Shown one piece after another: positions 23,513 to 42,565 of a stretch of DNA of 64,000 bases (positions within the stretch are counted from its first letter, which is position 1; each line of letters begins with the position of its first letter). The notes beneath the pieces were generated by a model, which saw nothing but the letters and a program-made list of their open reading frames with translations, was not told where the DNA came from and ran no database searches. The translations under genes and the position numbers were made by a program. Origin of the DNA: Mediterranea sp. (GTDB lineage Bacteria; Bacteroidota; Bacteroidia; Bacteroidales; Bacteroidaceae); NCBI GenBank assembly GCA_031258135.1, contig JAIRNG010000022.1, forward strand, positions 5,689 through 69,688, written 5' to 3'.

Positions 23513-24820
23513 TCAGGGTATATCTTTTCTGTTGCGCACCATTTTAAGTAGCGGAAGGATAAAAACCAGCAAGACCGGCATCAAAAACACAATACTTTTG
23601 TTCTTGCTGCTGAAGTCGAAAACACTGTCCCGCGACATGGCTTCCACCATGGAAAACAGTAGCAGGAACACTTCAAAACTCAGCACGATGAAGAGGGTAA
23701 TCATATAATCCCTATTCTTGTTCAGGTAACAGGGAAATGCCGGAATCGTCCAGTACAGCGTGAAAAACAATATGATCAGAATGACGATTACCAGCAAAAT
23801 CGCGGCGTATATTTCCCAATTATTTTCAGGATAATCGCTGTTAATCAAATCAACAATATCGGAGTCACGAAATTCATAAGGGGAAGTGTACGGCAACTCG
23901 TTGGGATAACAGAATCCCGCTAAATAAAACTGGTCTGTCACTTTGGTCAACAGAAAATAATCGTCGGCATCTTTCTTTGTAATGACTGTTGTTCCGGCAA
24001 ACAGACGGTCGGGATCGCTGCCATCGAGAATAAAAATACTGTCGGTCATACTGGCAATGCAGGAAAGATATTCCCGTTCCGATGCGCCTCTTTCGCCGAA
24101 AGAAAAATACACTTTCAAGCTGTTTATCGTTTTCAGGGAGATGAAATCCGTAACCAAAGCAACCGATTTGGCAAACTGCGCCATCGCACGTTTTTCCCTG
24201 AATGAGAAGTCGGGAAAATAAAAGTTCACGCCGCGGATTTTCCCTTGTTCCGCCGAATTGGTTTGATGGATGTATCTGAAGAGTTGAATAAGATAGGTAT
24301 TGACTAAACCCGGCGATCTCAGGAAAAAATCCGTATTCATTTCGCCGCGGCACTCAAACATGATATCCGCATTTCGGTTTATGCGGGCAAGCGTATCCGG
24401 TACGGGTGCGGGATTATAGCGCATGAAGGCCGTGTCGGGCGATGCGTAAAGTGAAAAAACACCGCGTATCCATCTCTTTTCGGAAAAACCGGGCGCAGTC
24501 CGCAACATGGGCATAAAATAGTTCAGATACACTTCTTCGGGCGAATAGCGGCGGGTACTGTCCATGAGGTTAAGATACAGGAGAAACCGCCGGACGTACC
24601 TGTCATAACTTATACCCAATTTCTCTGTAATATCATTGAGATCGGATATGAAAATATAGGTCGTATCGTGCAGGAAAACCGTATCCGGCGTATATGTATA
24701 GTATTCATCTTCGTCTTCATCTTCATCCGTTTCATCATCCTGTGCGGACAAATAAAGCGGAAAACAGACAACGAGTAGCGCCAATGCCATTATTCTGTGT
24801 AATATCCCTGAGTTTTTCAT
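23513..24820 (-). CDS. Membrane protein: signal peptide, degenerate GH18-like domain, three C-terminal TM helices
   Basis: FLRSPGLVNTYLIQL...RGVNFYFPDF...AMAQFAKSV resembles the GH18 core but lacks the DxxDxDxE acids. Starts 3 nt after the ATPase stop. Confidence 0.6.
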   Translation of the reverse strand: MKNSGILHRIMALALLVVCFPLYLSAQDDETDEDEDEDEYYTYTPDTVFLHDTTYIFISDLNDITEKLGISYDRYVRRFLLYLNLMDSTRRYSPEEVYLNYFMPMLRTAPGFSEKRWIRGVFSLYASPDTAFMRYNPAPVPDTLARINRNADIMFECRGEMNTDFFLRSPGLVNTYLIQLFRYIHQTNSAEQGKIRGVNFYFPDFSFREKRAMAQFAKSVALVTDFISLKTINSLKVYFSFGERGASEREYLSCIASMTDSIFILDGSDPDRLFAGTTVITKKDADDYFLLTKVTDQFYLAGFCYPNELPYTSPYEFRDSDIVDLINSDYPENNWEIYAAILLVIVILIILFFTLYWTIPAFPCYLNKNRDYMITLFIVLSFEVFLLLFSMVEAMSRDSVFDFSSKNKSIVFLMPVLLVFILPLLKMVRNRKDIP

Positions 24821-24823
24821 ATC

Positions 24824-26095
24824 TTAACCGTTAATTAGTTTTCCTTCTTTAAACTGTTCCTGCGCAATAGCCTGTTTCAACAATTCGGGCGTAAGCGTCG
24901 CCCGGCTTTCGCCATACAGCCGGATGGCACACCGCTGAATCACATTGACGATGCTGCCACCGGATAAAATATATTCCGACGCCTTGTTCAGAAGTGTTTC
25001 GCTATCGTCAGGCAACCATTCTCCGGGCAGCATTTTTTGCCATAGCCGATAGCGCAGCCGCTCGTCGGGCGTAGGGAAAAAGAGCACCGACTGGAAACGG
25101 CGGGAAAATGCCTCGTCGATGTTTTCCTTCAGGTTAGTCGCCAGGATAACTATGCCTGCAAAATCCTCAATGCGTTGCAACAGGTAGGCAACTTCCTGAT
25201 TGGCATGGCGGTCGTTGGACGACTGTGTTTCGGTACGGCGTCCGAACAGGGCGTCGGCTTCGTCAAAAAACAGAATCCAGTTCCGGTGTACCGCCTTATC
25301 GAAAATTTTGGCGAGGTTTTTCTCCGTTTCGCCGATGTATTTGGATACAATCATTGACAGGTCCACGCGGTAAACGTCCATTGCATTTTGTTTACCGATC
25401 AGGGTTGCCGTAAGCGTTTTCCCCGTACCCGGCGGACCGTAAAACAGGCAGCGGTAACCCGGTTTGACGATGCGGTCCAACCGCCATCGTTCACGGATTT
25501 CCTTCTGATGGCGTATCCACCGGACAACATCGTTTATTTCTTCGTTCAGGTTATAGGGCAAAACCAGATCCGGCCATTCCAAAGGCGTGGTAATCCGTTT
25601 GGCAGGGAAGCCTGCGCTGTATTCCGGCTCGTATTGTTTGCCGTTTATGCGGGATAGAACTTCTTCCGGTACGATCAGTTTCCCGCTTAATAACGGTTCG
25701 TTTTCGCCCTGTCCTTCCAGGGGCAGGTTGGGGATTTCCATGCCCAACTGTTTCAAAAGGAATGCGGCGGTCTGTCCGGTAGGCAGGAATCCGGAATGTG
25801 ACATACCTTTCCAGCCCCCAAATTCGGTATACGGACGGTCTAACTCTTTGTTTTGCACAAAGAGAATATCGAGCGTCTGTGGTGACAGGTGCGGCATCAG
25901 GGCAAGCAGCCATACGACCGCCTCCTCTGTCGAGAGCGTTTCCGCCTGCACCAAACCGGCTAACGGTTTTAAATCCGGCGGCGCTATCCGTTCGAGCGGA
26001 GTTGCGTCATCCGGTTGAAAATACCGTTGTAAAGCCATTTCAAGGAGCTTCCAAAACCACTCTATATACATCTTCCAATTTTCTCCGTGATCCAT
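24824..26095 (-). CDS. eCIS AAA+ ATPase (Afp15/Pvc15-like)
   Basis: GPPGTGKT, VDLSMIVSKYIGETEKNL, LFFDEADALFGRR, DRHANQEVAYLLQR. Confidence 0.92.
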   Translation of the reverse strand: MDHGENWKMYIEWFWKLLEMALQRYFQPDDATPLERIAPPDLKPLAGLVQAETLSTEEAVVWLLALMPHLSPQTLDILFVQNKELDRPYTEFGGWKGMSHSGFLPTGQTAAFLLKQLGMEIPNLPLEGQGENEPLLSGKLIVPEEVLSRINGKQYEPEYSAGFPAKRITTPLEWPDLVLPYNLNEEINDVVRWIRHQKEIRERWRLDRIVKPGYRCLFYGPPGTGKTLTATLIGKQNAMDVYRVDLSMIVSKYIGETEKNLAKIFDKAVHRNWILFFDEADALFGRRTETQSSNDRHANQEVAYLLQRIEDFAGIVILATNLKENIDEAFSRRFQSVLFFPTPDERLRYRLWQKMLPGEWLPDDSETLLNKASEYILSGGSIVNVIQRCAIRLYGESRATLTPELLKQAIAQEQFKEGKLING

Positions 26096-26104
26096 ACGTA
26101 TTCC

Positions 26105-28852: not shown

Positions 28853-29073
28853 ATTTCCGGTTTAATAAAAAGTAATCGCCGTAGTTATCGCCATGAATCT
28901 TCAAATTTAAATGCACGGACCAAGGCTTTTAACATGACTTGTAACGTTTAAAAGATTAATATTCAAAGACTAATGTTTTGTTCACGTTATGAAGATACGA
29001 CTCTTTTCCCATATCCGGTTCTTTTTTCCAAAAAAGATAGTTAAATTATACAAACGTGCGAGTTGCAGGCGTC

Positions 29074-29422
29074 CATGTATGTGTTGGCCCGTCGTCAATG
29101 ACATGGAGCAAAAACATCTATGTGTTGGCCCGTCGTCAACTACATGGAACAAAAACATAGATGTTTTTGCGCGTCGTCAACTACATGGAGCAAAAACATA
29201 GATGTTTTTACGCGTCGTCAACTACATGGAGCAAAAACATAGATGTTTTTGCGCGTCGTCAACCACATGGAGCAAAAACATAGATGTTTTTGCTCGCCGT
29301 CAACTACATGGAGCAAAAACATCTATGTGTTGGCTCGTCGTCAACTACATGGAGCAAAAACATCTATGTGTTGGCTCGTCGTCAACTACATGGAGCAAAA
29401 ACATGTATGTGACGGCCCGCCG
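29074..29422. repeat. Tandem array, ~8.5 x 41 bp, inside the eCIS cluster
   Basis: CGTCGTCAACTACATGGAGCAAAAACAT... units start at 29090, 29131, 29172, 29213, 29254, 29295, 29336 and 29377. No unique spacers. Confidence 0.95.
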
Positions 29423-29442
29423 ACGGCGTCGGGAAGAAAAAA

Positions 29443-29512
29443 ATCCGTGCAATCCGTGAAATCCGTGTCTGAATATAATCTTAAGGACACGGATTTCACG
29501 GATCACACGGAT
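29443..29512. repeat. REP-like inverted repeat built from 9-bp ATCCGTG units
   Basis: ATCCGTGCAATCCGTGAAATCCGTGTC ... GACACGGATTTCACGGATCACACGGAT. Confidence 0.8.
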
Positions 29513-29521
29513 GATAAACAG

Positions 29522-29549
29522 GTAGAGACGCAAAATTTTGCGTCTCTAC
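29522..29549. repeat. GTAG-type REP palindrome
   Basis: Perfect 28-bp palindrome GTAGAGACGCAAAATTTTGCGTCTCTAC. Confidence 0.85.
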
Positions 29550-29617
29550 TTAATCGGAGATTTAAAAGGTTTACCGGTAGACTAAAACACCTGTTCAGCC
29601 ATTTAATGGCTTTTTCT

Positions 29618-30169
29618 CTATATGTTGACTTTCTTCTGCACGGCCTTTTCTCCCATCCTGTCCGCCTCGTGTTCCAGTCCTTCATTATCATTCACATTCA
29701 CTCCCTGCAACTGCATCGTCGGCTGTACCCGCCCCTGCATCTGTTGCACCACATGCCAGGCCTCGTGCCCAAGATGCTTCTCCTGACCGGGCGCCACGTG
29801 AATATCCGTGCCTTGCGTATAGGCGAGGGCTTGCAACTGTGCGGGTTGGGGAGAGTTGTAATGCACCCGCACATCGTCCATGCTGAGGCCGGAAAGGTTT
29901 TCGATGCCGGATTTCAGGTGGTCGGGCAAGCCGGTTTTGTTTTCGCTTTTGGCTTGTAGCGGTAGTTCGTCTTCATCCAAACTTGCCATTTGCGCCGTAT
30001 CGGAGAACTTGCCCTGCAGCAGCTCGTCTTCATCCGGCATGGCCTCTTTTTGTACTGTTTTGTTCAGGTACCGCTGCAAGATTACGCTTGCCGGCGCCTG
30101 CTTTGCCGCCCGCGGATCGGAGTCCATTGCGCGGGAGACTGTTTTGCGTTGTTGTACGGTTACTTTCAT
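29618..30169 (-). CDS. DUF4157 (eCIS core domain) protein without a C-terminal toxin
   Basis: [48 protein letters not shown] motifs; stops about 13 aa after the domain. Confidence 0.9.
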
Positions 30170-30205
30170 TATGGTTTTTATTTGGGGTATTTATTTTCCG
30201 GTTGT

Positions 30206-31615
30206 TCATCGTTCTTTTTTTAATTCTTCCCTCAACTTGTCGGCGCAGGCCGCCATCCATGGCCTGTTCTGTTCGGACAGGGATTGCCTCCAGGCGGCAT
30301 ACCGTTGCCAAAAAACGTTGTGCCGCTCCGCGCTCAACCACAGGAAACGGACGTCTACATGTACGGGAAGCCTCGCTCTCAAAAACAATTCGTACTGTTT
30401 CCGGCTGTTGTCGTCAGCCGTTGAATATATCGCCACTGTCAGCCTGTTGCAATCGTCGGTGCTATCATCCAACAAGATGTGTTCCACCCAGTAGACCCTT
30501 ACTGCCGTTTGTCCGAAAACGGCAGCGGCCAACTGTTCGACAGGCGGCGTGTTGTGCCTGCCGGTTTGCAGGATGTTGAACGAGCGGAAACGGTGCGCGT
30601 TCCATTTCGGGATGCGGCAGATCAGGCGGGCGCGTTTTTCGTTTTGTACCGTCAATGTGCTTTCGTCGGCAAAAAATGTTTCGGCGTCTTCGCCGTACAT
30701 CGCGTAGAGCAGGCCGATCCACAGGGACTTTTGTCTATGCCGGTTTTCCACATCCAAAAGGCCGTTTTCTGCAAAACGCGCCTCATCAATCAGGTTTTCC
30801 ATGTCGTCTATCATAAAGTCGGGGAGGTAGGGCGGAGGCGTGCGTTCCGATAAGTCCATCAGGCGGGCTACTGTCCGGCTTTGATGCAGAACGTTTGACA
30901 TTATGAAGTCGAAAATCAGCAGATAGGCTTTCAGTTGCCGTATCAGGGCTTTCCGTTCGGGTGTAGCGCCGGCCGGAACGCCTTTTTCGTTTATGCCGTA
31001 GGTGTCGGGAAAATGGTTCTGAAAAGAATAGTAGGCTTGCGTGGAAACCTCTGAATGTTTGCTTGCTGTGTTTCTCGCTGCAAATTCGGGCGCAATGGGG
31101 GAAATGTTATCATTATCTTCCCCGTCGCCGTCTATCTTTTTAAAAACCGTTTCGCCCAATGTTTCGCAAAAATTGCGGCGGGCATGATAGTATTCGTTTA
31201 TCTGTTTTTCCAATAATCCTCTGTCTGCATTTCTTTCCGGTTCTATTTCTATCCGGTAGCGGCAGTCGGGCGCAAGGCTTACGCGGCAACGTTTTACGCC
31301 CTTTACTCCCGTCCGGATGGATTGCTCGTAATCGGCAGGCGTAACAAGACTCGGTGCGGTCAGTTCCTTTGCCGGAAACAATCCGAATTTGCCATAGCAC
31401 AGTTTACCGTTTTCCGTCAGGAACGATTCGAAAGGCTGTTCCAAAGCCAACTGTAAATCCAGAAGCGCGTAATGCACCGCTTCCAGAATGGTTACGCCGG
31501 GATCGTGAGCGTTGAAATCCGTCCAGCGGTTTCCACTCAGTTCCTGAATCATTTCCATGGCTTGCACATACAGTCTTGCGTATGGGTTGTCTTCCTTATC
31601 GTGGCGTTGTATCAT
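30206..31615 (-). CDS. eCIS baseplate wedge protein (Afp12-like)
   Basis: WTDFNAHDPGVTILE, RNFCE, QLKAYLLIFD, VEHILL, LPVHV motifs. Confidence 0.82.
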   Translation of the reverse strand: MIQRHDKEDNPYARLYVQAMEMIQELSGNRWTDFNAHDPGVTILEAVHYALLDLQLALEQPFESFLTENGKLCYGKFGLFPAKELTAPSLVTPADYEQSIRTGVKGVKRCRVSLAPDCRYRIEIEPERNADRGLLEKQINEYYHARRNFCETLGETVFKKIDGDGEDNDNISPIAPEFAARNTASKHSEVSTQAYYSFQNHFPDTYGINEKGVPAGATPERKALIRQLKAYLLIFDFIMSNVLHQSRTVARLMDLSERTPPPYLPDFMIDDMENLIDEARFAENGLLDVENRHRQKSLWIGLLYAMYGEDAETFFADESTLTVQNEKRARLICRIPKWNAHRFRSFNILQTGRHNTPPVEQLAAAVFGQTAVRVYWVEHILLDDSTDDCNRLTVAIYSTADDNSRKQYELFLRARLPVHVDVRFLWLSAERHNVFWQRYAAWRQSLSEQNRPWMAACADKLREELKKER

Positions 31616-32315
31616 TCCAAAGCGATGTTATATGATAATGAATATCCGTATCGTCGTATTTGAAAATTGTTTTTAGTTGCAGTTTTGCACTGTATCCGCC
31701 TTTCGTCTTTTTCCACCGGATTCGGATTTTATTTCCGTAAAGTCCGAAATACGAATCCGTTTTCCGTATTTTTGAGTGATGACCGAAACAGGCGGTGGCA
31801 GTAGCCGTCAGGACGGCATGTTTACCCGAATGTTTTTTCCCCACTACAGCCGTAATCTCTAAAACCCGGCAACCATCCAGTTCGTCGGTGATGTCGTGCC
31901 AGTATCCATCGGCGGGCGCTTTACCCCTGTACAGCGATCCTTCGCGGGCTTCCATTCTGACCGTTCCTCCGAAAACGGCTTCTTTCCCTTTTTCGGTTAT
32001 TCCGACGGAACCGTCTGTCTTTAAGGTCAGCAGGGGAACGCTGCCTGTTTCTTCAAAACGGCGTATTTCGAGGCTGTTTTCCTGATTGATGGCAAACTCC
32101 CACTGTGGTTTGGCGTCGCTCATTTCCTTAAACACAGACAAAACCGTTCCCTTTTCCAACAACGGAGCCAGCCCCATGCCGGTTTCGGGATTTTTGGAAA
32201 AACCGTCGTCAAGAATGTTGAGGGTCGAGTCAATCAAGTGTCCAAAATCCTGCTCGTCCGGCTTTTTCCCTTTCCGGAAGCTTTCTTTCAATGTCTGCCT
32301 GTTTCTTCTTGCCAT
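31596..32315 (-). CDS. eCIS accessory protein with a fibre-attachment ('shoulder')-like N-terminus
   Basis: RNRQTLKESFRKGKKPDEQDFGHLIDS N-terminal motif; beta-rich C-terminus; lies between the baseplate genes. Confidence 0.55.
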   Translation of the reverse strand: MARRNRQTLKESFRKGKKPDEQDFGHLIDSTLNILDDGFSKNPETGMGLAPLLEKGTVLSVFKEMSDAKPQWEFAINQENSLEIRRFEETGSVPLLTLKTDGSVGITEKGKEAVFGGTVRMEAREGSLYRGKAPADGYWHDITDELDGCRVLEITAVVGKKHSGKHAVLTATATACFGHHSKIRKTDSYFGLYGNKIRIRWKKTKGGYSAKLQLKTIFKYDDTDIHYHITSLWNDTTPR

Positions 32316-32319
32316 AACC

Positions 32320-35300
32320 TTAACTTATTATAAGCGATTCGTCAATTACCATCTCGCTGATCCCGAAACCGGTGGTATCATCAGCCTCAATCAAGTGTTC
32401 CCTCGCCGGAACAAAAACGGAACACGGCGTGGAAGGCGACACGCGGCTGTGATTCCTGCCGTATTCGTAGAGCATATAGTTGTTTTCGCTGTATTCGCTG
32501 ATAACGACAAGCGAAAGATGTTGCATGTCATCAATATATTCCTCCTGCAAAATGGCTTGCCGGATAGCTTCCATATCCAGAAAAGAACCGAAAGAGGGCA
32601 AACCGAATGTCTTTTGCCATGGGGCTATCCGGTCATCCAGCAAATCCGTCAGGCAGGTGCGGTAAAGCTCCGATGAATAATGTTTTTTGAAACTTACGCG
32701 GCAACGTACCATCACTTTTTCGTAAAGCGGATTGACGGCATTAACAAAATGTACTTGCGCCGGAGTGCGTCCCGTAAAATACTGTTCAATTTTCAGCAGC
32801 AGCCGCGAACTGGCCATCGGTTCCCGTTGCTCCGCTCCTGAGTGGCCGCTCCTTTGGGGAATAACCGCCAGCATAATCGTATTTTTATCCATCATGAGGC
32901 ATTTTACCTTTGCAATATTCGAAAAGGCTTGCAGGGTCATCCGCTCGTAGTCGCGGGCAGTAACGGCTTTCCCACGGTGACTTGCGTATTCCGACAGGCG
33001 CAGGAGGCGTTCTTCGCGGCTTTCGTCGTTTCGTCCGTGATAGGATGCGACAGACACGCAGCCGGTCAGGGCAGCGACGGATTCTTCCGGTTCCCATTCC
33101 CTGCCGGATAGCTGCCCGAACTGTCCGGCAGAGCTGTATTCCGTTTCCGCTTCGCCGGTATTCAAGTATATTTTCCGGATGGACGGTATCACTCCTTCGT
33201 TCTTTTCAACGCCGACGCATAGCCATATCCTGCCTTTTTCATCAAACAGGTTGTCACCAATAGTATCGGGCAGGCAGATTTTCACGAAACCGTCCATCAG
33301 AAAACTGGCTGTTTTGTCTTCCGTTATGCAGCCATCCGGGATGGTTTCCCACAGGTAACCGTTGCCGAGATACCATTTCACTTGCGGAGTCTGTTCCGAA
33401 GTGATTTCCCTGTTGTAGCGGTTGAAATCGAAGTACAGGCTCAACACGCCGCCTTTCTTTACTCCGGAAAGCAGAATCAGCAGGCTGGCGTCAACTCCCG
33501 TGGCGTAGACGGGCGTAATCACCTGGTTGTCCGTCGCAGGATAGACCTGCCGGTTGCCGAAAGGCGAGATATGACAGAAAGTCGTCTGACCGGAAGAACG
33601 GCGTTGCATGTCAATCGTTTCTTCGGCAATATAATTAATTGTAATGCGCTCGATCAGGGGGGAAATGGGAGCGCCCGGCTCCGGTTTTTCCTTTTTAAAA
33701 AATGGAATCTTTTTAGCAAGGGTTTTACTTACTATATGGTCTGAAAAAAGCGTCCGGTAACGTTTCTCTCCAAAACCGATATCGGGTGAAGTCAGGATAA
33801 AACCGGCAAAACCTGTTTTGGCATGTATCGTGTATTCGTATTGTTCTTCCGGCAGGCGCACTGCGGGCATCTTTTTCAGATTTATTCCCTGAAACGTAGT
33901 TTCCGTCGTCAATGAAGCATCGGGGACCGTTCCGAAAAGCGGATATTCCCCGCAGTCTTTCCATTGGTAGTCGGACAAATATCTTGCCTTAACGCGGAAC
34001 GAAGTGTTGTCTATCTCTCCGCCGTATCCGGCGTAATGTCCTTTCAAGCCCTGTGCGTGGGCGGGCAATTGTCCCCACTGGATATGAACGTCGAGCGACT
34101 GCGTATTTTTGATAGCCATTTCGTAATTTCCAACCGCCATCCACGCTCCTTTTTCGGTGTTGACGCCGAAAGGGACAAAGGGTTTGGAGCAGTCTATTTT
34201 CCCCAGATCGTTATATACGATCACGTCATTAACGCCTTTCACGGCGGTTGTGATGCGGATTTTTTTTATCGGGAACTGTTTCAGCCATGAGTAGGGATAT
34301 AACCACGCATCAAAATTCAGATAAACCATGAGCGCAGGGATATCAGACCGGAATTGATGTGTTTCTTCGTTGCAGGCGGCGGTTGAGGGAAACTCTTCCG
34401 GTAAAGTGAACTTCAGTGACAGGCATGCGTTTTCCCTTTTTACCGTATAATTTTCTACCACTTCCCAGCCGTCAGCCGTACTGAAGCGAATATAGAAAAT
34501 TCGATGAAAGAGCAGATATTCGGATGTTTCCATTGAACAACTGTTCGCTACCGAAAGTCGCCGGACAATTTCATTCAGATAATTTTTCGTATCACTGCTG
34601 TTTTCAGGCTCAAAAACAAGTCTGACCGTCCGTTTCCCTTCGCGCAGCAACAGGATAGGGGAAACAATCATAAATCCCAACGGATGCGCGTCTTCTCCGC
34701 CACTGCCGTTTCCAAACAGGACATTCTCCTGTATATTGCTGTTTAGCAGGTTTTTTACGCGGAGCGAAGTAACGAATCCGAGTCCGGTCGCCGGAAAGAT
34801 GTTTTTCTGCCGTCCGAAATAGACGGATCGCACGTCTTCGATAGCAGCGTTTTCCACAATTACATCATCGGTCAGGTGATAAACAGGCGAATTGGGGTCG
34901 GCTTTCAGGCGAAATCCCAAACCTTTATGCAGGTTGACGGCGCCAGCGGTGTTTTTGGCGAATTGCAGGCAAATCTTGTGTTTTTCAGGCGGCAGGGGTT
35001 TCAGTCCTAACACATCAAAGCAATACCTGAAGGCGGAATCGTCCCAGCGCCGGTTAAACCGCTCCGCAATCTCGTGCAGCTGCCTGAGGAAGGTAAAAAG
35101 CAGGGCTTGCGCCGGTTCCATGTTCCCGTCGGGGACAAAGTTTTCCACGCCTTGCTTGCGGATGGCATCAAGGTCTTGCAGAAATTGGTCGAAATAACCG
35201 TCAATTTCTCCTTTCGGGTTATAGTAACGGATGAAGCCAGCAACCGCCTGTGCCTGCCGCAAAAGCGATTCTATGCCGTTATCAATGGCGGCGAACTTTC

Positions 35301-35349
35301 CCGCTTCACTGATACGTTTCATTCTTTCCACCTGATTCAATCCATCCAT
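32320..35349 (-). CDS. Baseplate J/gp6-like protein (Afp11-like, extended)
   Basis: PAQALLFTFL, LLLREGKRTV, PFVPFG, RLSEYASHRGKAVTARDYE, VKCL motifs. ATG at 35349. Confidence 0.88.
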   Translation of the reverse strand: MDGLNQVERMKRISEAGKFAAIDNGIESLLRQAQAVAGFIRYYNPKGEIDGYFDQFLQDLDAIRKQGVENFVPDGNMEPAQALLFTFLRQLHEIAERFNRRWDDSAFRYCFDVLGLKPLPPEKHKICLQFAKNTAGAVNLHKGLGFRLKADPNSPVYHLTDDVIVENAAIEDVRSVYFGRQKNIFPATGLGFVTSLRVKNLLNSNIQENVLFGNGSGGEDAHPLGFMIVSPILLLREGKRTVRLVFEPENSSDTKNYLNEIVRRLSVANSCSMETSEYLLFHRIFYIRFSTADGWEVVENYTVKRENACLSLKFTLPEEFPSTAACNEETHQFRSDIPALMVYLNFDAWLYPYSWLKQFPIKKIRITTAVKGVNDVIVYNDLGKIDCSKPFVPFGVNTEKGAWMAVGNYEMAIKNTQSLDVHIQWGQLPAHAQGLKGHYAGYGGEIDNTSFRVKARYLSDYQWKDCGEYPLFGTVPDASLTTETTFQGINLKKMPAVRLPEEQYEYTIHAKTGFAGFILTSPDIGFGEKRYRTLFSDHIVSKTLAKKIPFFKKEKPEPGAPISPLIERITINYIAEETIDMQRRSSGQTTFCHISPFGNRQVYPATDNQVITPVYATGVDASLLILLSGVKKGGVLSLYFDFNRYNREITSEQTPQVKWYLGNGYLWETIPDGCITEDKTASFLMDGFVKICLPDTIGDNLFDEKGRIWLCVGVEKNEGVIPSIRKIYLNTGEAETEYSSAGQFGQLSGREWEPEESVAALTGCVSVASYHGRNDESREERLLRLSEYASHRGKAVTARDYERMTLQAFSNIAKVKCLMMDKNTIMLAVIPQRSGHSGAEQREPMASSRLLLKIEQYFTGRTPAQVHFVNAVNPLYEKVMVRCRVSFKKHYSSELYRTCLTDLLDDRIAPWQKTFGLPSFGSFLDMEAIRQAILQEEYIDDMQHLSLVVISEYSENNYMLYEYGRNHSRVSPSTPCSVFVPAREHLIEADDTTGFGISEMVIDESLIIS

Positions 35350-35405
35350 TCTCAACGTTTAATCCTTATCTTATAACTTTCAGGTATTAACTTCCGGTTC
35401 TCAGT

Positions 35406-35804
35406 TCATATATTTGTTCCTTCCATAAAATAAAACGGATAAACCATATTGCTGCGCGAATTGGTTTGCCGTATCCGGTAATCGATGTTGAGCCACAGGA
35501 CGCCTTCCTGCTGGTCTTTGACTTCTACGTCGATTCTTTCTATGTCGATACGCGGCTCGAAATAGAGTATAGCATGTTTGATAGCGTCGATTATCAGCGT
35601 TTTTACGGACAGGTTCATCTCTTCAAACACCCACTGGCGGATATTGCAGCCGTAGTTGAAATTGAAAATCCGTTCGCCCGGCACGGTGGAAAACAGTATT
35701 TCCAGACTTTGCCGAACGTCCTCATCCTTGCTGACCATGCGTGCGCCGTGTCCTTTGACAAATGCCGGCGGAAACGCCCAACCTGTTCCCAAATAATCGT
35801 TCAT
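35406..35804 (-). CDS. gp25/GPW baseplate protein (Afp9-like)
   Basis: LGTGWAFPP, STVPGER...YG, FEPRI, NMVYPFY. ATGA overlap with the PAAR stop. Confidence 0.92.
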   Translation of the reverse strand: MNDYLGTGWAFPPAFVKGHGARMVSKDEDVRQSLEILFSTVPGERIFNFNYGCNIRQWVFEEMNLSVKTLIIDAIKHAILYFEPRIDIERIDVEVKDQQEGVLWLNIDYRIRQTNSRSNMVYPFYFMEGTNI

Positions 35805-36103: not shown

Positions 36104-36123
36104 CTTTTCTAAATTATTAATCG

Positions 36124-37914
36124 TTAATTAATCATCACCATTGCACCTTTTACTATCGTTTGCCCTGCGGCGGAAATTTCCGCTTTGGCATTTCCCTTGA
36201 CCGTCAACTCGGTATTGGCGGCGGCTTCTATCTTCAAGCCTTTCAGCGTGAGGTTGGATTTGGCTTGTGCATCTAAATTGGCGCCGGCCTCCGTCTTCAC
36301 ATTCATTTTAGCTTTTAGTATCAGGTCTTTTGCCGATTCGATGGTAATCCCGCTGCTGTTCATCACAATTTTATTCTTGTTTTGGTCGGTCAGGGAAATA
36401 CTTTTGTCCTTATCGCTTATTTTCACGATGTTTTTCCCCGGCGTTTCTATCGTAATGACTTTATCTTTGTCGTCAAATTCCACCTTCATCTTTGATTTGG
36501 TGAGTATGGAGTGAATGTCGTTTTCCTTTTTCAGTTCGCAGGGCGACTTCTGTTTGCTGCTGTACAGGCTTCCCAGAATGACGGCGTGGCAGGGGTCGTT
36601 GTTGAAAAAGCCCAATATCACTTCGTCTCCGGCATCGGGGATGGAGAAAGCGCCGTAACCGTTGCTTGCCCAAAAGGCGCTCAACCGCGCCCAGACTTTA
36701 TTGTTCGTACCGTTGAGCAAGGGTATTTCCACTTGTATTTTGCTTTCGCCGGTCGGGTCGCCGTCCAGTTTTACCACTTTACCGATGTGCAGTCCCCCGA
36801 TACCGGGCAGGAAACCCGAAGCGGGCGGCGCCGTTACGTCCGGGTTATCGGTAATATCCGTACCGGGCAAGCCGAGCCCTGCGGTAGTTGTCCACATCCC
36901 TTCTTTGATTTCATGCTCTACGTAACCGACGTATGCCGTCCCATTGAAGCGGACGCCCAGTCCGGCGAGTTCCAGCGTTGTGCCGTGCAGGGCTTTGGCA
37001 GAGCCCTGAAACTTGCAGTAGCCCTGTATTTGCGACAGTCCGGCTTTCAGGCGTTGCGAATCAGCCCATGCCTGCAAGGCGCTTTCTTCGGCGCAGGTGG
37101 TTTGCAGGATATATTTTTCCACGCCTGTGGCTTTTGCCAACTTTGCGGGTGTTGCTGTTCCCTGTTTATTGAGGGAAGGAGTTTTACCCGACGCTCTGAC
37201 AATTTTCTGTTCTTTGGGATTCCAGGCAAAGGCGTCTATATCGCCCTGCCGGTCAGAAGCGGAAAGTTCGCCGCGAAAGGTTATCAGGTCATTGCCGTAA
37301 GTTACTTTCAGCTTTGCCGCTGCGCTTACTCCGGGCTTTTTCACATGGATATTTTTGCCTTCAGTAACGATGACCAGTCCGTTGGCGTCGGCGCGGGAGA
37401 GTATGAAATCCCAGTCGGTGGCGTAATATTGCACCAGTTCGTTGTATGTGGCAGAGGTCGCATCGACCGAGGCGGACATGGGCGAATAGCCGCTCAGAAT
37501 CTGCCTGATGGCGTCGCTGTCTTTTTTCTTCTCGAAAACGGCATTTTTACGCGCCAACGTTGTGGGGAAAGCATAGTCGCGGCACTCGATTTGCAAGGCG
37601 GCGTTGTTCCCTTCCGATACAACAAAGTTGTGGCTAACAACAATGCCCTCAAAAATGGGACTTTCGTCATTGCCGTAACCGGCTTCGATGCGGATGGCTT
37701 TACCGGGGGCAAACGTTTCGTCGTCGCTTTCGGGTACGACATTCCGGGGCATATCGCCTGCGGCGAAGACCAGCGTGGCTCTGCCTATCCGGTTTACGCC
37801 CTTGAACACGTTGGCGGAGATCAAACCGAACACGCCGGTTTTGATTGCCTTGCCATCGCTGAAAACGGAAACGCGAACGACGCCGTCGGAATTTTTATCG
37901 GGTGAATCGGCCAT
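36124..37914 (-). CDS. VgrG/gp27-gp5 spike (Afp8-like)
   Basis: Start MADSPDKN at ATG 37914; VQYYATDWDFILSRAD, WARL...P..GDEVILGFFNNDP, beta-helix C-terminus. Confidence 0.92.
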   Translation of the reverse strand: MADSPDKNSDGVVRVSVFSDGKAIKTGVFGLISANVFKGVNRIGRATLVFAAGDMPRNVVPESDDETFAPGKAIRIEAGYGNDESPIFEGIVVSHNFVVSEGNNAALQIECRDYAFPTTLARKNAVFEKKKDSDAIRQILSGYSPMSASVDATSATYNELVQYYATDWDFILSRADANGLVIVTEGKNIHVKKPGVSAAAKLKVTYGNDLITFRGELSASDRQGDIDAFAWNPKEQKIVRASGKTPSLNKQGTATPAKLAKATGVEKYILQTTCAEESALQAWADSQRLKAGLSQIQGYCKFQGSAKALHGTTLELAGLGVRFNGTAYVGYVEHEIKEGMWTTTAGLGLPGTDITDNPDVTAPPASGFLPGIGGLHIGKVVKLDGDPTGESKIQVEIPLLNGTNNKVWARLSAFWASNGYGAFSIPDAGDEVILGFFNNDPCHAVILGSLYSSKQKSPCELKKENDIHSILTKSKMKVEFDDKDKVITIETPGKNIVKISDKDKSISLTDQNKNKIVMNSSGITIESAKDLILKAKMNVKTEAGANLDAQAKSNLTLKGLKIEAAANTELTVKGNAKAEISAAGQTIVKGAMVMIN

Positions 37915-37922
37915 AATTTTAC

Positions 37923-38591
37923 TTATGAGTGGCGGATGAGTGGCGGGAATACGAGTTGCGTGCCCGGCGGAACGTTCCTGAAACCGGTCAGGCGGTTGTA
38001 GCGGGCGACGTCCGTACAGTAGGAGGCGTCGCCGTAAATGCTGTTGCACCACCACGCGATGTTTTCGCCTGCTTTGAGGGTAATGATGTGGGTCATGTCG
38101 GGAGAATTGCGGTTGGCTTGTTTCGCTTCGGTTGTTTTATCCATGGAACCGGTAATGTTCATGGATACTTTTACCCGCAAAGGAGAACCTCCCGGTGTAA
38201 ACAGCGTGTAATCGTAGGAGGATGAAGAGAGCCTGCCCTTAAAGCTGAAGTTTCCCCAAATGATGTGCAGGTAATGGGTTTCGTGTGAATTTCCATTGTA
38301 ACCGACAACGTTTTCCAGATAATTGATGGCGCCGGATACGCTTTTTTCTTTCAGGTCGATCAATCCGGTACCGTCAAAGAGGGTTTCGAAAGCCAGGGTG
38401 GAGTCTCCATACGCATTGAATTTCCGGTCCGACGCAGAAACGCCCTCTCTTTTGTCTTTCACATACTTTATTGTCTGTGAATGTTTCAATGAATCCGGAT
38501 TTATCTGCAAGTCCATTTCCCCATGTTTCTGAGTATATTTTTCATCGCTGTACCCGATGATTTTCATCTTTATCAATTTGCTGTCCGTCAT
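37923..38591 (-). CDS. CIS tube initiator with C-terminal LysM-like domain (Afp7-like)
   Basis: QINPDSL, WGNFSFKG, YTLFTPGGSPLR, IYGDAS...VARYN.L motifs. Confidence 0.87.
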   Translation of the reverse strand: MTDSKLIKMKIIGYSDEKYTQKHGEMDLQINPDSLKHSQTIKYVKDKREGVSASDRKFNAYGDSTLAFETLFDGTGLIDLKEKSVSGAINYLENVVGYNGNSHETHYLHIIWGNFSFKGRLSSSSYDYTLFTPGGSPLRVKVSMNITGSMDKTTEAKQANRNSPDMTHIITLKAGENIAWWCNSIYGDASYCTDVARYNRLTGFRNVPPGTQLVFPPLIRHS

Positions 38592-38594
38592 TTT

Positions 38595-38756
38595 TTACCT
38601 CTCTTTCCTGTTTGTTACCTGTTTCCTTATGGAATCGTTTATCTCGTTGAGAATACTCCGCCTGAGTTTCTGCAAAACTTCTTCCGGTATTTCCGCCTGC
38701 CGGTCTGAACGTTCCACCGTTGTCCTGACCTGTATTTCCTTGATTACGATAGCCAT
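38595..38756 (-). CDS. Small eCIS protein, DUF5908/Afp6 (plug)-like, 53 aa
   Basis: Not in the ORF track. MAIVIKEIQVRTTVERSDRQAEIPEEVLQKLRRSILNEINDSIRKQVTNRKER fills the gap between tube 2 and the initiator gene exactly. Confidence 0.8.
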   Translation of the reverse strand: MAIVIKEIQVRTTVERSDRQAEIPEEVLQKLRRSILNEINDSIRKQVTNRKER

Positions 38757-38757
38757 T

Positions 38758-39228
38758 TTAATGTCTTTTTAAATATGAATATGCAAACTCCAGCGTTTCA
38801 ACCAGCACGCTGTTCTTTTCCGAATCAAGGGAATCAATATCCCATTTGACCGGATATGCTTTTCCGCAGAGCCATGTGTATATGGGATTTCCGGTATTAT
38901 CCAACAGGCTGATATTCAAATCTTTCGTTTCTATCGGTGGTAAAAGGTCGTTTTCCATGATGCTTTTTATCCATTTGATAAAATCGCTCTTTACCGGTAG
39001 CTGCGCTCTCTTTAACATCAAATTTCCATGTTTGATTTGTTTAGGGAGTTGATGCTGATAGCTGTTGAGTCCTCCTTCGCCGACGGCTTCGGTTTCCATT
39101 TCCACATTCAAACCTGAAACTTCCTTAAAGGGTATCTGTTCATTCCCGACGTCAACCCGGAAGTAAAAGGCAACCGGAAGCCACCGGTCATCATTCTTCT
39201 TCTTATTATTATCCGTCATAACCGACAT
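38758..39228 (-). CDS. Phage tail tube protein, gp19-like (Afp5-like)
   Basis: PVAFYFRV, FKEVSGL, EGG.N...HQLP, AYPVKW, VETLEFAY. Confidence 0.92.
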   Translation of the reverse strand: MSVMTDNNKKKNDDRWLPVAFYFRVDVGNEQIPFKEVSGLNVEMETEAVGEGGLNSYQHQLPKQIKHGNLMLKRAQLPVKSDFIKWIKSIMENDLLPPIETKDLNISLLDNTGNPIYTWLCGKAYPVKWDIDSLDSEKNSVLVETLEFAYSYLKRH

Positions 39229-39299
39229 TTAAACCTGAAGTGAGAAATGAAAAACAAGGGTTGTTTTCCATCGCTCACTTCATTGTTTCATGTTTAATT

Positions 39300-39755
39300 T
39301 CAGCTGTTTGCAATCGTTAGTCCCTCGTGGGCGATTTCCAGCGTTTCCACTGCTACTTCGTTACCATCGGATTTCATATCCGTGCCGGTAATTTTGGTAG
39401 GCCATGCGTTCTTGAGCGTCCAAACCATTGTAGGGTTGCCGCCTTCGTCCAACAGTGATATGGTTACCGACTGCCGTTCGATGGTGTTCATCTTTATTTT
39501 GTTGAACCAATCCCAGAACTTGTTGTCCTTGGCAAAAATCCCCTTTTTCAAGGTTACGTTGCCGAATTTTTTGATGCCCGGCATTTTGATTGTTGAAAAT
39601 TCGGGGCTGTTGCCATGCCTGTACTCGATGATTTGCGCTTCCACGTCCAAACCGGAAACTTCCTGGAATGTGGCGTCCGCCAGATCTTTATCTACTTTTA
39701 CCGAAAAGTAAAACTTCGGTAATGGCCATACGTTATCTTGCTTATCTCCTGCCAT
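39300..39755 (-). CDS. Phage tail tube protein, gp19-like (major tube, Afp1-like)
   Basis: PLPKFYF, FQEVSGL, KMPG...NVTLKKG, AWPTK, VETLEIAHE. Confidence 0.95.
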   Translation of the reverse strand: MAGDKQDNVWPLPKFYFSVKVDKDLADATFQEVSGLDVEAQIIEYRHGNSPEFSTIKMPGIKKFGNVTLKKGIFAKDNKFWDWFNKIKMNTIERQSVTISLLDEGGNPTMVWTLKNAWPTKITGTDMKSDGNEVAVETLEIAHEGLTIANS

Positions 39756-39800
39756 AATGGTAATGTTTAGTATTTATTTTTAATTTGTTTAATTTTTCCG

Positions 39801-41291
39801 TTAACTTTTCTGCATTTGTTGCTGGAAGGTGATTTCAATAAATTCCGCAGGCCGGACAAGGGCTACCAGTACGGTAACGCGCATGATGCCTTCGAGAATA
39901 TCTTCCGGCGTCATGGTCTCGCCCAAACCGACGTAAACGCTGTATGCATCGTCGGGTATGGAGCCTGCCAGACCACCGCGTTTCCATATACCGTTGAGGA
40001 AACCGGAAATCATGCTTTTTACGTTTACCCATGTATTGCCGTCATTGGGTTCAAACACGTAGGCTTTCGCTGCATTCTTTACCGATTCTTCCAGCATAAT
40101 CATTGTCCGGCGAACGTTGATGTAGCGCCAGTCCAAAGAGTTGCCGTCCAGCGTGCGCGCTCCCCAGACCTTGATGCCTTCGCCTATAAAGAAACGGACG
40201 GCGTTGACCGATTTGCCGCTGATGGGTACGTTCAGGTCTTCCTGTTCTTCATGCGAAATGTTCACCGCAGGACCCGTTACCGTGGCGATGCTGACGTTAG
40301 CGGGGGCTTTCCAGACTCCCCTGCTGTTGTCTACCAGCGTATAAACGCCTGCCATGGCTGCCGAGACGGGCAGCAGGTTGAGCGACAGCCGTATTTCCTT
40401 TATAATTTCCCTGTACAGCGGGCTGATTTGTGAGAACACCTTGTGCAGTGTGTTCTGTTCCACGGACGACAGGCCTTCTTTGAGGCTGTCGATGTAAATC
40501 TTCGCCTGCGTTTTTTTAGCATCCGGCATGTTTGATGCGTCCAGTTCTGCGGCAAGCAGTGTTTTCAGGTTCTCGATATCCAGGTTAAGGAAGCTGACTT
40601 CGTTTTCCTGCACGATGGATGTGTTGATCCATGGATAATAGACTGCGCCATAGTCGAGGAAGTTGCTGCCGATAGCTTCGCGGAAGTTGTTTACCGCATC
40701 GCCGCCGGGGTCTTTGCGGTCTTTGTCTCCGCCGTAAATGTCCAATATGGCAAAGCGGTTTTTCATCACGTTGCCGCAATGGTTAAGCACGGCTTGTTGC
40801 AGCGCATAGCAGTCGGCCGGGTCGGAGAGGTTTACCGCTTCGGGGATAACCACCATCGTTGGTTCCTGCTCCTTGACAAGCGGCAGGATGCCGGCTTCGA
40901 TTTTCGCTTTGTCTATTCCGTCGGCTGTGTAGTCGCCCACGGACACGATGTAGCACGGTCCGCCGCCGTTGGCATAGAACAGAAGCATGTTGTAATAGAG
41001 GGTAAATGCGTCTTGCCGTTTAAGTGCATAGCTTTTGCCTCCAAATGAGAGTGTACCGTCTGCCTGGGCTTCTTCCAGCGTAAACCTGGGCATGGGAGCG
41101 TCTCCGAAATAGGTGCGGAACTCTGCCATGGAGGTAATCCGCCACGGCTGGTTAAGTAGTGACTTGTTTCCGTTAACTGCTTTTTCGGTGTAGCCGATAA
41201 AGGCGGGAACGGCGGTTGCTACTTCTACTACTGAATTGGGGAATGCGTTTTTCTCAACGATATAAACCCCTGGTGTTTTCATCACTGCCAT
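39801..41291 (-). CDS. Contractile tail sheath protein
   Basis: KTPGVYIVE, TAVPAFIGYT, RGVWKAPAN, WGARTL, YINVRR, RPAEFI. Confidence 0.96.
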   Translation of the reverse strand: MAVMKTPGVYIVEKNAFPNSVVEVATAVPAFIGYTEKAVNGNKSLLNQPWRITSMAEFRTYFGDAPMPRFTLEEAQADGTLSFGGKSYALKRQDAFTLYYNMLLFYANGGGPCYIVSVGDYTADGIDKAKIEAGILPLVKEQEPTMVVIPEAVNLSDPADCYALQQAVLNHCGNVMKNRFAILDIYGGDKDRKDPGGDAVNNFREAIGSNFLDYGAVYYPWINTSIVQENEVSFLNLDIENLKTLLAAELDASNMPDAKKTQAKIYIDSLKEGLSSVEQNTLHKVFSQISPLYREIIKEIRLSLNLLPVSAAMAGVYTLVDNSRGVWKAPANVSIATVTGPAVNISHEEQEDLNVPISGKSVNAVRFFIGEGIKVWGARTLDGNSLDWRYINVRRTMIMLEESVKNAAKAYVFEPNDGNTWVNVKSMISGFLNGIWKRGGLAGSIPDDAYSVYVGLGETMTPEDILEGIMRVTVLVALVRPAEFIEITFQQQMQKS

Positions 41292-41310
41292 AAAATGTTT
41301 ATATTAAAGT

Positions 41311-42021
41311 TTAAAAATAAAAAAAACTTGCGACTGTTTCCTGTGTGCGAATGGGGGAAAACTGGTCGGGCTGCGGATTGGGAATGGTTTTGCTGATTTC
41401 CCTTTCGCCGCTTTCGCGCACTTCCCATAACTGCATTCGCAGGTTGTTGTTTTGCCTTAGTTTTATCTTTTCCAAGGTGGCAAAACGGTAAATGACCGGA
41501 ATATCCGGCAGTGAAACCTGTTCCGCGCCGGTCAGAGCGGTGCGGTTTTTTTCTTCCGTCATTTTCAGACGGATTCCGGCGGGATTGTATCGGGGGATAC
41601 ACAGGTATTCGTAGTACTTTTCCGCGCTCCTGATGTTTACCGTTATTTCGTTTTGTTTTCCTGCGGCGATGCCGGCCGTGCTGATTTCCAGTTCTTTCCA
41701 GACCAGGGGCGAGGATGAGTCGTTCAGTGAAAACGTTTCATCGCCGGCGGCGGTTTGTGTAACATGGTAGAACTGTGCGTCGCGCGGACGGAGTTCGAAG
41801 CGGAAACACGCTTCTTCATCCGTCAGGTCTCTGATGTGAAAATCTTCTTTCACAATCAGGCAGGCGCCGTCCGCATGGTTGCGGAACAGGATGTCAAAAC
41901 GCGAAAAACAGCGGGCGGTCCGTGCATCGGGCGTCAGCGATACGGGACAGATTCCACCGGCGTAGTATTCGTGTTTCAAATGGATGTCCAGTCCTGTTTT
42001 ATATGTCTGCATTCTTCCCAT
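41311..42021 (-). CDS. eCIS hypothetical protein, possible cap adaptor
   Basis: Overlaps the cap gene and precedes the sheath; N-terminal I.LKHEYY motif. Function inferred from position. Confidence 0.55.
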   Translation of the reverse strand: MGRMQTYKTGLDIHLKHEYYAGGICPVSLTPDARTARCFSRFDILFRNHADGACLIVKEDFHIRDLTDEEACFRFELRPRDAQFYHVTQTAAGDETFSLNDSSSPLVWKELEISTAGIAAGKQNEITVNIRSAEKYYEYLCIPRYNPAGIRLKMTEEKNRTALTGAEQVSLPDIPVIYRFATLEKIKLRQNNNLRMQLWEVRESGEREISKTIPNPQPDQFSPIRTQETVASFFYF

Positions 42022-42565
42022 GTTTACTTTTCGCTTCTGTTTCTTTTCCTGTGATAACCGTTCCTGTCCGTTTAATTTCGCCGGCGTCTATCACGATGTT
42101 CCGTAACTTGCAAAGCAGGGACGGATGGTACTGACCGCCAAGGATGCTCCACAGATTCGACAACTCGCTGGGCTGTATATTGACCGGCTCGACAGAGATG
42201 TTCACGCTTGTCCGGGACGGGGCGAAAGTGTTGTTCGCCTGCAGGAAGGCGACTGCGCCCGACAGGAGTTGAACGCCTTCTGCGTATTGCTTTTCGTTGA
42301 ACACGGCGGCAAGTATTACGTAGAGGTTCAACTGCCAGACCGGCGAGCCTTTCCAATATTGTCCGTCCGTGACGGCTTGCCTGCTGTGGCTGATGCCTCC
42401 TGTGGTTTCGCGTTCGATATTGACCAGAAACAGATGTATTTTATTGTCGGTGGATTTATCGGGGTTTACCGGCTGCAGGGACATGACGCTCTCCGTCAGT
42501 CTGAAAGCGCGTTTCAGGTAGTCGTCCAATAGGAGTGACAGGGTTTGCAGGGTCTTTGCTATCAT
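41999..42565 (-). CDS. DUF4255/Pvc16 (Afp16-like) cap / tail terminator
   Basis: HLFLVNIERE, LNLYVIL, LSNLWSILGGQYHPSLL motifs; first gene of the cluster. Confidence 0.88.
   Translation of the reverse strand: MIAKTLQTLSLLLDDYLKRAFRLTESVMSLQPVNPDKSTDNKIHLFLVNIERETTGGISHSRQAVTDGQYWKGSPVWQLNLYVILAAVFNEKQYAEGVQLLSGAVAFLQANNTFAPSRTSVNISVEPVNIQPSELSNLWSILGGQYHPSLLCKLRNIVIDAGEIKRTGTVITGKETEAKSKHGKNADI

What the first reader, a model, noticed from the sequence alone, without database searches (positions are those of the whole stretch)
23513..42565. Compact, apparently intact contractile injection system with no recognisable lysis genes, long fibre or effector
Seen: 17 tightly packed minus-strand genes. 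In order they are DUF4255 cap, putative adaptor, one sheath, two tubes, plug-like ORF, LysM initiator, VgrG, PAAR, gp25, Afp11-like, a 239-aa accessory gene, Afp12-like, DUF4157, tape measure, AAA+ ATPase and a TM protein, with no frameshifts evident. Known: this is the Afp/PVC/MAC/AlgoCIS/BIS class, so the class itself is not new. Inference: this version is unusual in having a single sheath, no holin/endolysin, no Afp13-type fibre, no toxin and a membrane protein as its last gene. That fits a cell-retained, membrane-associated CIS (compare T6SS-iv or the Streptomyces cytoplasmic CIS) better than a lysis-released particle.
Basis: partly seen in the sequence, partly recalled or inferred. Interest (0 to 1): 0.8.

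Follow-up and report, generated by a model that had tools for sequence, protein, structure and literature searches.

The report
Gut-bacterium injection needle with dead-enzyme anchor
This is a 17-gene phage-tail-like injection machine of a Bacteroidales bacterium, close kin of the membrane-associated SalCIS and BIS systems, whose last gene encodes a predicted membrane protein derived from a sugar-cleaving enzyme that has lost its catalytic residue and so likely tethers the machine to the cell envelope instead of cutting the wall.

Summary
All 17 minus-strand genes are there, without stops or frameshifts. The 239-aa gene is an Afp13/Cis13-type mini-fibre. The DUF4157 gene (intact HExxH) resembles the SalCIS effector SalCgo2, and a second DUF4157 gene with a protease-like extension lies elsewhere in the genome. 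A single sheath and no lysis genes are ordinary for BIS and SalCIS. The membrane-association guess matches SalCIS (Nat Commun 2026), the closest solved system for sheath, spike, cage and cap adaptor. The last gene (435 aa) has the SalCis20 layout: signal peptide, GH18/SleL-like domain, three predicted TM helices. What I did not find in print is this Bacteroidota form: the catalytic glutamate is gone in 46 of 46 aligned homologues and the barrel is truncated. It sits right after the CIS ATPase in 58 of 62 fetched loci and occurs in 15 of 30 other CIS-bearing genomes of the genus. An ATPase tree nests BIS loci lacking it among loci that have it. Verdict: new variant of a known kind. A non-enzymatic membrane tether is likely but untested.

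The parts
41999..42565 (-). Cap, Afp16/Cis16a (188 aa)
   Evidence: Pvc16_N E 1.5e-28
41311..42021 (-). Cap adaptor, Cis16b (236 aa)
   Evidence: Only PDB hit: SalCis16b 9R9N_C, E 4.6e-5
39801..41291 (-). Single sheath, Cis2 (496 aa)
   Evidence: Pfam; best PDB hit SalCis2 9R9H, 661 bits, against AlgoCIS 366
39300..39755 (-). Inner tube, Cis1 (151 aa)
   Evidence: PF06841 E 2e-50
38758..39228 (-). Second tube/initiator, Cis5 (156 aa)
   Evidence: PF06841 E 3e-36
38595..38756 (-). Plug, Cis6-like (53 aa)
   Evidence: DUF5908 E 8e-5, below cut-off; Afp6 position in BIS
37923..38591 (-). Tube initiator, Cis7 (222 aa)
   Evidence: CIS_tube E 5e-42
36124..37914 (-). Spike, VgrG/Cis8 (596 aa)
   Evidence: Best PDB hit SalCis8 9RCE_F, 546 bits
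35801..36103 (-). PAAR tip, Cis10 (100 aa)
   Evidence: PF05488 E 2.5e-24
35406..35804 (-). gp25 sheath initiator, Cis9 (132 aa)
   Evidence: PF04965 E 5e-25
32320..35349 (-). Baseplate cage, Cis11 (1009 aa); lacks the SalCis11 domain IV extension
   Evidence: Best PDB hit 9RCE_A, E 1e-69; SalCis11 394-552 faces only residues 248-272 here
31596..32315 (-). Short tail fibre, Cis13 / eBAP2 mini-fibre-like (239 aa), no predicted TM helix
   Evidence: Family profile hits tCIS Cis13 N-terminus, E 5.6e-6; model matches fibres and tailspike 6E1R; Afp13 position in BIS; hydropathy
30206..31615 (-). Baseplate wedge, Cis12 (469 aa)
   Evidence: Position; 48% identical to the 472-aa gene at the same place in L029; weak TIGR02243
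29618..30169 (-). Bare DUF4157/eCIS_core protein with HEAWH at 135 (183 aa), candidate core cargo
   Evidence: PF13699 E 1e-10; motif
29074..29419 (.). 41-bp tandem repeat, 8.4 copies, in the 765-bp gap; dispersed genome repeat, not CIS-specific
   Evidence: similar arrays on contigs C142, C96, C29
26105..28852 (-). Tape measure protein, Cis14 (915 aa)
   Evidence: CIS_TMP E 2e-95
24824..26095 (-). AAA+ ATPase, Cis15 (423 aa); Walker A and B present; about 18-aa in-frame deletion near residues 114-123
23513..24820 (-). Cis20-like membrane protein (435 aa): predicted signal peptide, truncated GH18-like domain lacking the catalytic Glu, three predicted TM helices, invariant terminal Pro

Best explanation
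The locus encodes a clade Ib contractile injection system of the SalCIS/BIS lineage that likely stays inside the cell, docked baseplate-first at the inner membrane, with the 435-aa Cis20-like protein likely acting as a non-enzymatic envelope tether. Shown here: the gene set, the relationships, the loss of the GH18 catalytic glutamate and the tight linkage of this gene to the ATPase. Inferred from SalCIS: cap, adaptor, one sheath, tubes, spike and cage assemble into a particle whose length is set by the tape measure protein, and the ATPase loads DUF4157-tagged cargo. The membrane protein would be exported by Sec, with its dead GH18 domain in the periplasm, where it would bind peptidoglycan or another GlcNAc glycan. 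Its three helices would mark the docking site that the short Cis13 trimers contact. On an unknown trigger the sheath would contract and drive the tube through the cell's own envelope into a neighbour, delivering the in-locus DUF4157 protein and the orphan DUF4157-protease candidate.
For: SalCIS is the top solved match for sheath (661 against 366 bits), spike (546 against 440), cage (238 against 130) and cap adaptor. SalCIS has one sheath, a short Cis13 and a signal peptide + SleL-like + 3-TM protein, lies near the inner membrane in tomograms and was not detected in supernatants (PMC13266070). The 435-aa model aligns best with SleL and YdhD (Z 10.2, rmsd 3.0, 154 residues), and the top 37 rows of the wide search are GH18-type barrels. 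Its family profile matches CIS-encoded GH18 + TM proteins of Persicobacter (97.4%, E 9e-12) and Aureibacter (94.5%), which also end in Pro. The gene directly follows the CIS ATPase in 40 of 43 genome loci and 18 of 19 metagenome loci. T6SS-iv systems with Cis13 homologues contact the inner membrane through six densities, and BIS was proposed to be T6SS-iv-like for that reason.
Against: No imaging or secretion data exist for any carrier. The membrane gene was not found in 15 of 30 other CIS-bearing genomes of the genus or in G303, whose ATPase is close to this one, so related systems do without it. The cage lacks SalCis11's domain IV extension, proposed to face the membrane. The fibre's C-terminal domain resembles saccharide-binding phage receptor-binding domains, which also suits a released particle. 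AlgoCIS, in the same clade, is unanchored and found in supernatants. The ATPase deletion may impair this copy.
Confidence: 0.52

Rival explanations
1. It is a lysis-released extracellular CIS like AlgoCIS. The mini-fibre binds a target glycan, and the membrane protein helps release or senses a trigger instead of anchoring.
For: eBAP2 mini-fibres with a 6E1R-like head are the commonest eBAP2 fibres in an eCIS catalogue (PMC12923769), and this model hits 6E1R. AlgoCIS reaches the supernatant unanchored. Half of the related genus loci lack the membrane gene.
Against: No holin or endolysin family in the locus. The only wall-enzyme-like gene has lost its catalytic Glu. The closest solved system showed no release.
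Confidence: 0.25
2. It is a membrane-recruited, self-directed system like the Streptomyces CIS. The periplasmic domain senses wall fragments or stress and triggers firing into the cell's own envelope, for cell death or defence.
For: SalCIS expression pinched the inner membrane and arrested division, and its authors raise a domesticated or defensive role. A dead GH18 domain could serve as a glycan sensor (inference). DUF4157 cargo was toxic mainly in the periplasm.
Against: CisA is a single-pass protein of different layout, and the Streptomyces sheath is distant (132 bits). No regulator or defence gene was found beside the locus.
Confidence: 0.13
3. This copy is decaying: assembly genes are still open, but the ATPase is damaged and the DUF4157 gene is cut short.
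For: ATPase deletion not seen in 57 of 57 relatives measured. The DUF4157 gene ends right after its core and is followed by repeats, whereas 58 of 78 DUF4157 ORFs in related loci exceed 300 aa.
Against: No stop or frameshift in 17 genes. Walker motifs are intact. Ten of those 78 DUF4157 ORFs are 120-200 aa, and the gap holds no detectable coding remnant. Lengths of Cis11, Cis12 and Cis14 match L029.
Confidence: 0.1

Closest known systems
SalCIS of Salmonella enterica subsp. salamae (Ejaz et al. 2026, PMC13266070)
   Same: Single sheath, Cis16a/16b cap, short Cis13, DUF4157-type HExxH cargo, ATPase, and a membrane protein with signal peptide, SleL/GH18-like domain and three TM helices; top PDB match for four proteins tested.
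   Different: Bacteroidota host (the SalCIS-like operons I saw listed are Salmonella, Erwinia, Cedecea, Pectobacterium). One-directional gene block. Membrane protein is 435 aa against about 97 kDa, with a truncated barrel and no DxE. No Cis11 domain IV extension.
Bacteroidales injection system, BIS (Rojas et al. 2020, PMC7394362; PMC12210884)
   Same: Sixteen of the 17 genes have counterparts in the 18-gene B. cellulosilyticus WH2 list, in the same order up to Afp12; single sheath as in architecture 2; no lysis genes listed; ATPases share one clade.
   Different: Extra Cis20-like gene; DUF4157 before the tape measure gene; plug gene present although architecture 2 was described without it; no second sheath or gp25-gp27 hypothetical gene as in architecture 1.
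T6SS subtype iv (Amoebophilus, Aureispira)
   Same: Clade Ib, short Cis13 homologue, proposed inner-membrane contact through six densities and the cage.
   Different: SalCIS authors found no Cis20 homologue in A. asiaticus. Anchoring and secretion are not shown for this locus.
AlgoCIS and tCIS
   Same: Clade Ib structural set with double cap and cage; Cis13 N-terminus shared with tCIS.
   Different: AlgoCIS is unanchored with an Alg19 fibre. tCIS Cis13 has its own TM helix, which this fibre lacks.
Streptomyces CIS with CisA
   Same: A dedicated membrane protein encoded with a CIS.
   Different: CisA is single-pass with a cytoplasmic N-terminus; distant sheath; analogy only.

Membership tests
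SalCIS-like cluster | Sheath close to SalCis2, single copy | tested here: met
   Full-length match, E 9e-198; one sheath in the genome
SalCIS-like cluster | Membrane protein with Sec signal, periplasmic SleL/GH18-like domain and three TM helices | tested here: met
   (layout and fold; predicted, not measured)
SalCIS-like cluster | Direct homology to SalCis20 itself | not testable with these tools
   PDB 9R9A was not returned by any sequence or fold search; link made through Persicobacter and Aureibacter proteins only
SalCIS-like cluster | Conserved DXD hydrolase core in Cis20 | tested here: not met
   Catalytic Glu column is Pro in 45 and Ser in 1 of 46 rows; preceding Asp kept in 1 of 46
SalCIS-like cluster | Short Cis13 fibre | tested here: met
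   trimer state not separately tested
SalCIS-like cluster | Extended domain IV of Cis11 | tested here: not met
   About 160 residues of SalCis11 face 25 residues here
SalCIS-like cluster | SalCgo2 homologue | tested here: inconclusive
   Bare DUF4157 with intact HExxH; likeness to SalCgo2 judged by eye from the supplement, not aligned
SalCIS-like cluster | Sheath X-loop | not tested
   No sheath model made
BIS | Bacteroidales host with the core gene set of Table S4 | tested here: met
   host genus is unnamed by the tools and inferred to be Bacteroides
BIS | Phylogenetic grouping with BIS-type loci | tested here: met
   ATPase clade 100/99 with G003, whose order matches architecture 1; published reference sequences were not in the tree
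BIS | Order identical to architecture 1, 2 or 3 | tested here: not met
   Compared with text and Table S4; Fig. 2 not visible
T6SS subtype iv | Anchored at the inner membrane and firing from the living cell | not testable with these tools
   Needs cryo-tomography and secretion assays
Lysis-released eCIS (Afp/PVC) | Several sheath genes and long fibre | tested here: not met
   One sheath; 239-aa fibre
GH18 hydrolase | Complete barrel with DxDxE motif | tested here: not met
   No Pfam GH18 hit; aligns to residues 134-303 only of a protein whose GH18 domain spans 149-440

The most novel reading that the evidence does not exclude
Bacteroidota CIS loci record an enzyme turning into an anchor and then being lost. 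Outlying loci carry a GH18-3TM protein with the catalytic motif, this clade carries a dead truncated one fixed behind the ATPase, and classical human-gut BIS dropped it. BIS and SalCIS would then be one membrane-docked lineage, about half of Bacteroides-genus CIS would be T6SS-like machines tethered by a pseudo-glycosidase, and Cis20 would work without hydrolysis.
Probability: 0.35. Interest if true: 0.7.

Novelty: new variant of a known kind. Interest (0 to 1): 0.48.

Why it matters
How clade Ib injection systems without a T6SS membrane complex attach to the envelope, and whether BIS is released or cell-bound, are open questions. The SalCIS authors proposed wall remodelling by Cis20 and wrote that BIS has no such protein. 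A widespread Bacteroidota Cis20-like family without the catalytic residue separates anchoring from hydrolysis. It comes with natural controls: motif-intact forms, dead forms and loci without the gene, several in cultured strains.

Tried and rejected
Structure prediction of three fibre copies with the TM domain (residues 322-435) gave no verdict (score 0.10). A single-sequence scan of genome contigs found nothing; the alignment scan did. Foldseek alone gave no significant match for the membrane protein, and PDB sequence searches gave none. The 'longer' homologue search covered only 1564-4465 aa, so it did not test SalCis20-sized proteins. Sheath searches of viral contigs and E. coli genomes were empty. 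TssR was not found in the genome, but no control genome rang, so this shows nothing. Four termite-gut RNA libraries of one study gave contigs, mostly 95-99% alike, in 23-29 of 30 bins of the locus. The flank was covered similarly (15-27 of 30 bins), so transcription is not shown and DNA carry-over is not excluded. The 41-bp array was considered as a CIS element and rejected because it recurs on other contigs. The gap held no coding remnant by tblastn against the fetched loci. The neighbouring amidase was considered as a lysis gene and rejected as a likely housekeeping gene beside mlaD. A holin-like role for the three helices was considered but not tested. Two look-ups of earlier scan findings returned nothing.
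Full report
Observation. The window lies on contig C158 of G000 (2.43 Mb, 171 contigs, 82% complete). Seventeen open minus-strand genes run from the cap (42565) to a membrane protein (23513), with the families listed under parts. Fifteen of 16 junctions are within -23 to +71 bp. The exception is a 765-bp gap after DUF4157 with 8.4 copies of a 41-bp unit that recurs on other contigs. The flanks are housekeeping genes. The ATPase keeps its Walker motifs but is about 18 residues shorter in its N-terminal part than 57 of 57 related ATPases in which both marker motifs were found.

The fibre is present. BIS Table S4 assigns the gene between Afp11 and Afp12 to Afp13 (PMC7394362 supplement 4). A profile of 36 family members hits the N-terminal 40 residues of tCIS Cis13 (7B5H, E 5.6e-6), with weak hits to AfpX13 and other fibres (All3316 = Cis13). 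The model (pLDDT 80) has a helical N-terminus, a beta-rich shaft and a confident C-terminal domain. It matches the Bdellovibrio Bd2133 fibre (E 2e-4) and tailspike 6E1R (E 2e-3), the structure cited for eBAP2 mini-fibres (PMC12923769). The TM-scores are low (0.23-0.33). No TM helix is predicted.

Candidate cargo is present. The in-locus DUF4157 protein has an intact HEAWH. SalCgo2, encoded in all SalCIS-like operons, has an HExxH at 99-103 needed for mild periplasmic toxicity; by eye, the matching gene in the supplement is a similar bare DUF4157-type protein. A second DUF4157 gene lies on contig C112 (464 aa, among housekeeping genes). Its extension has a His...Cys pattern and a predicted fold near C80/CHAT/C25 cysteine peptidases (TM 0.42-0.67, below the tool's naming bar, so a lead only).

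Closest solved system. SalCIS ranks first for the sheath (661 bits; AlgoCIS 366, tCIS 335, Streptomyces 132), spike (546), cage (238) and cap adaptor. No BIS structure appeared in these lists, so this ranks solved systems only. BIS-type sheaths are also close: 60% identity to a P. distasonis plasmid copy and 55-68% within the genus. The SalCIS paper describes one sheath, a short Cis13, and SalCis20 with a Sec signal, SleL-like domain and three TM helices; particles near the inner membrane; and no detectable release. The cage here lacks SalCis11's domain IV extension.

The membrane protein. Hydropathy gives an N-terminal segment (6-24) and three C-terminal segments (337-355, 374-392, 410-428). 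The model (pLDDT 74) aligns over residues of about 86-287 with GH18 barrels, best SleL and YdhD (Z about 10, rmsd 3-4 A). The family is small: 80 representatives at 50% identity. Its profile matches GH18 + TM proteins annotated inside CIS clusters on Persicobacter and Aureibacter plasmids, which share the terminal Pro. In that alignment the Persicobacter DFE faces YFP. The Glu column is Pro in 45 and Ser in 1 of 46 rows, and the last 135 or so residues of the GH18 domain have no counterpart. A nearly invariant Asp follows one residue later, so an altered chemistry is not excluded. SalCis20 itself could not be compared.

Linkage. Of 43 genome loci, 40 have the gene directly after the CIS ATPase, one directly before, one two genes after, and one shows no CIS gene at a contig start. 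Of 19 metagenome loci, 18 follow the ATPase and one starts its contig. Some loci in the two sets are near-duplicates. Carriers span Dysgonomonas, Bacteroides, Alistipes, Tannerellaceae, Paludibacteraceae and Crocinitomicaceae. In the genus, 31 of 250 genomes have the CIS_tube gene. Fifteen of the 30 others have the membrane gene, all 15 beside the ATPase; the 219 CIS-negative genomes were not searched for it. In an order-wide sample of 401, 26 had CIS_tube over the cut-off and three of these had strong matches, with one marginal hit (E 5e-4) in a genome without CIS_tube. Only four candidates per genome were scored, so this is a lower bound. The Persicobacter protein matched 15 of 23 other CIS-bearing order genomes and 0 of 15 genus genomes lacking the dead form. 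Seven of 15 such loci encode C-terminal TM segments and a terminal Pro, six of them keeping the Glu; four of the seven lie in or near a CIS cluster.

Tree. ATPase trees (105 rows, quick, five carrier loci skipped for broken or missing ATPases; 46 chosen rows, careful) place all carriers of the dead form and the genus loci lacking it in one clade (100/99). The latter nest inside, and monophyly of the carriers is rejected weakly (AU p 0.035). This fits loss in classical BIS. It rests on one gene, my choice of outgroup and no published reference sequences, and gene transfer could give the same pattern.

Mechanism. The most likely reading is a cell-retained particle docked at the inner membrane through short Cis13 trimers and a glycan-binding, non-catalytic Cis20-like protein, firing DUF4157 cargo outward (0.52). 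Rivals are release by lysis (0.25), a self-directed system (0.13) and decay of this copy (0.10). Composition, relationships, motif loss and linkage are shown; localisation, binding partners, target and expression are not.

Literature seen. PMC7394362: parts 1-3 of 6 of the text and supplements 1 and 4. PMC13266070: parts 1-4 of 10, passages, supplement 1 parts 1-2, supplement 2 part 8, supplement 5 part 1 and headers, and a term search of six files. PMC12923769, PMC8894136, PMC12210884, PMC12237407 and bioRxiv 10.1101/2024.01.29.577165: passages only. PMC8894135: passages and one section. Searches returned no description of a catalytically dead Cis20 in Bacteroidota. Figures were not visible: SalCIS Supplementary Fig. 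1 names SalCis20 homologues in an image and could include Bacteroidota, one source-data file was too large to read, and dbeCIS was not consulted. The general GH18 DxDxE motif is recalled knowledge.

Verdict. The feature is real and its class is known. The part I did not find in print is the dead, truncated Cis20-like family that links BIS to SalCIS. New variant of a known kind; interest 0.48.

Noticed in passing
L074:6171-7565 (G000:C112): Orphan DUF4157 gene (464 aa) with a predicted cysteine-peptidase-like extension, standing among housekeeping genes; its HExxH reads HKAWH.
   Followed up: partly
window 25726-25756: ATPase deletion site; one RNA-library contig from a related strain stops aligning at 25742 with 32 unaligned letters, a hint that the deletion is strain-specific or an assembly error.
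   Followed up: partly
window 42942-43769: DUF6261 gene just upstream of the cap; tblastn finds relatives on 12 other contigs of the genome, so it is probably not part of the CIS.
   Followed up: partly
window 42796-42924, 1681-1814, 8446-8592, 29443-29512, 51649-51798: Many short tandem and palindromic intergenic repeats, including a 39-41 bp inverted pair upstream of the cap gene.
   Followed up: no
window 16314-17720: dnaA lies about 6 kb beyond the end of the CIS, so the cluster may sit near the replication origin.
   Followed up: no
L081 (G260), L083 (G132), L069: Longer (676-710 aa) Cis20-like proteins with the degenerate GH18-like domain apparently duplicated; in G260 and G132 the ATPase and membrane genes precede the cap gene.
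   Followed up: partly
L059 (CP034120.1): Record titled Glaciecola amylolytica carries a CIS whose ATPase groups with Fluviicola and is nearly identical to a metagenome contig; possible mislabelling or transfer.
   Followed up: no
L003, L004 (G008, G024): Lone sheath genes, 59% identical, with no other CIS gene matched in the 33-34 kb examined.
   Followed up: no
L134 (NZ_OY725765.1, 47977-51868): Parabacteroides distasonis plasmid record with cap, adaptor, sheath and two tube genes at its end; the first 20 kb of the record was not viewed.
   Followed up: no
L039, L041, L042, L052: CIS loci with several split genes, either decay or assembly errors.
   Followed up: no
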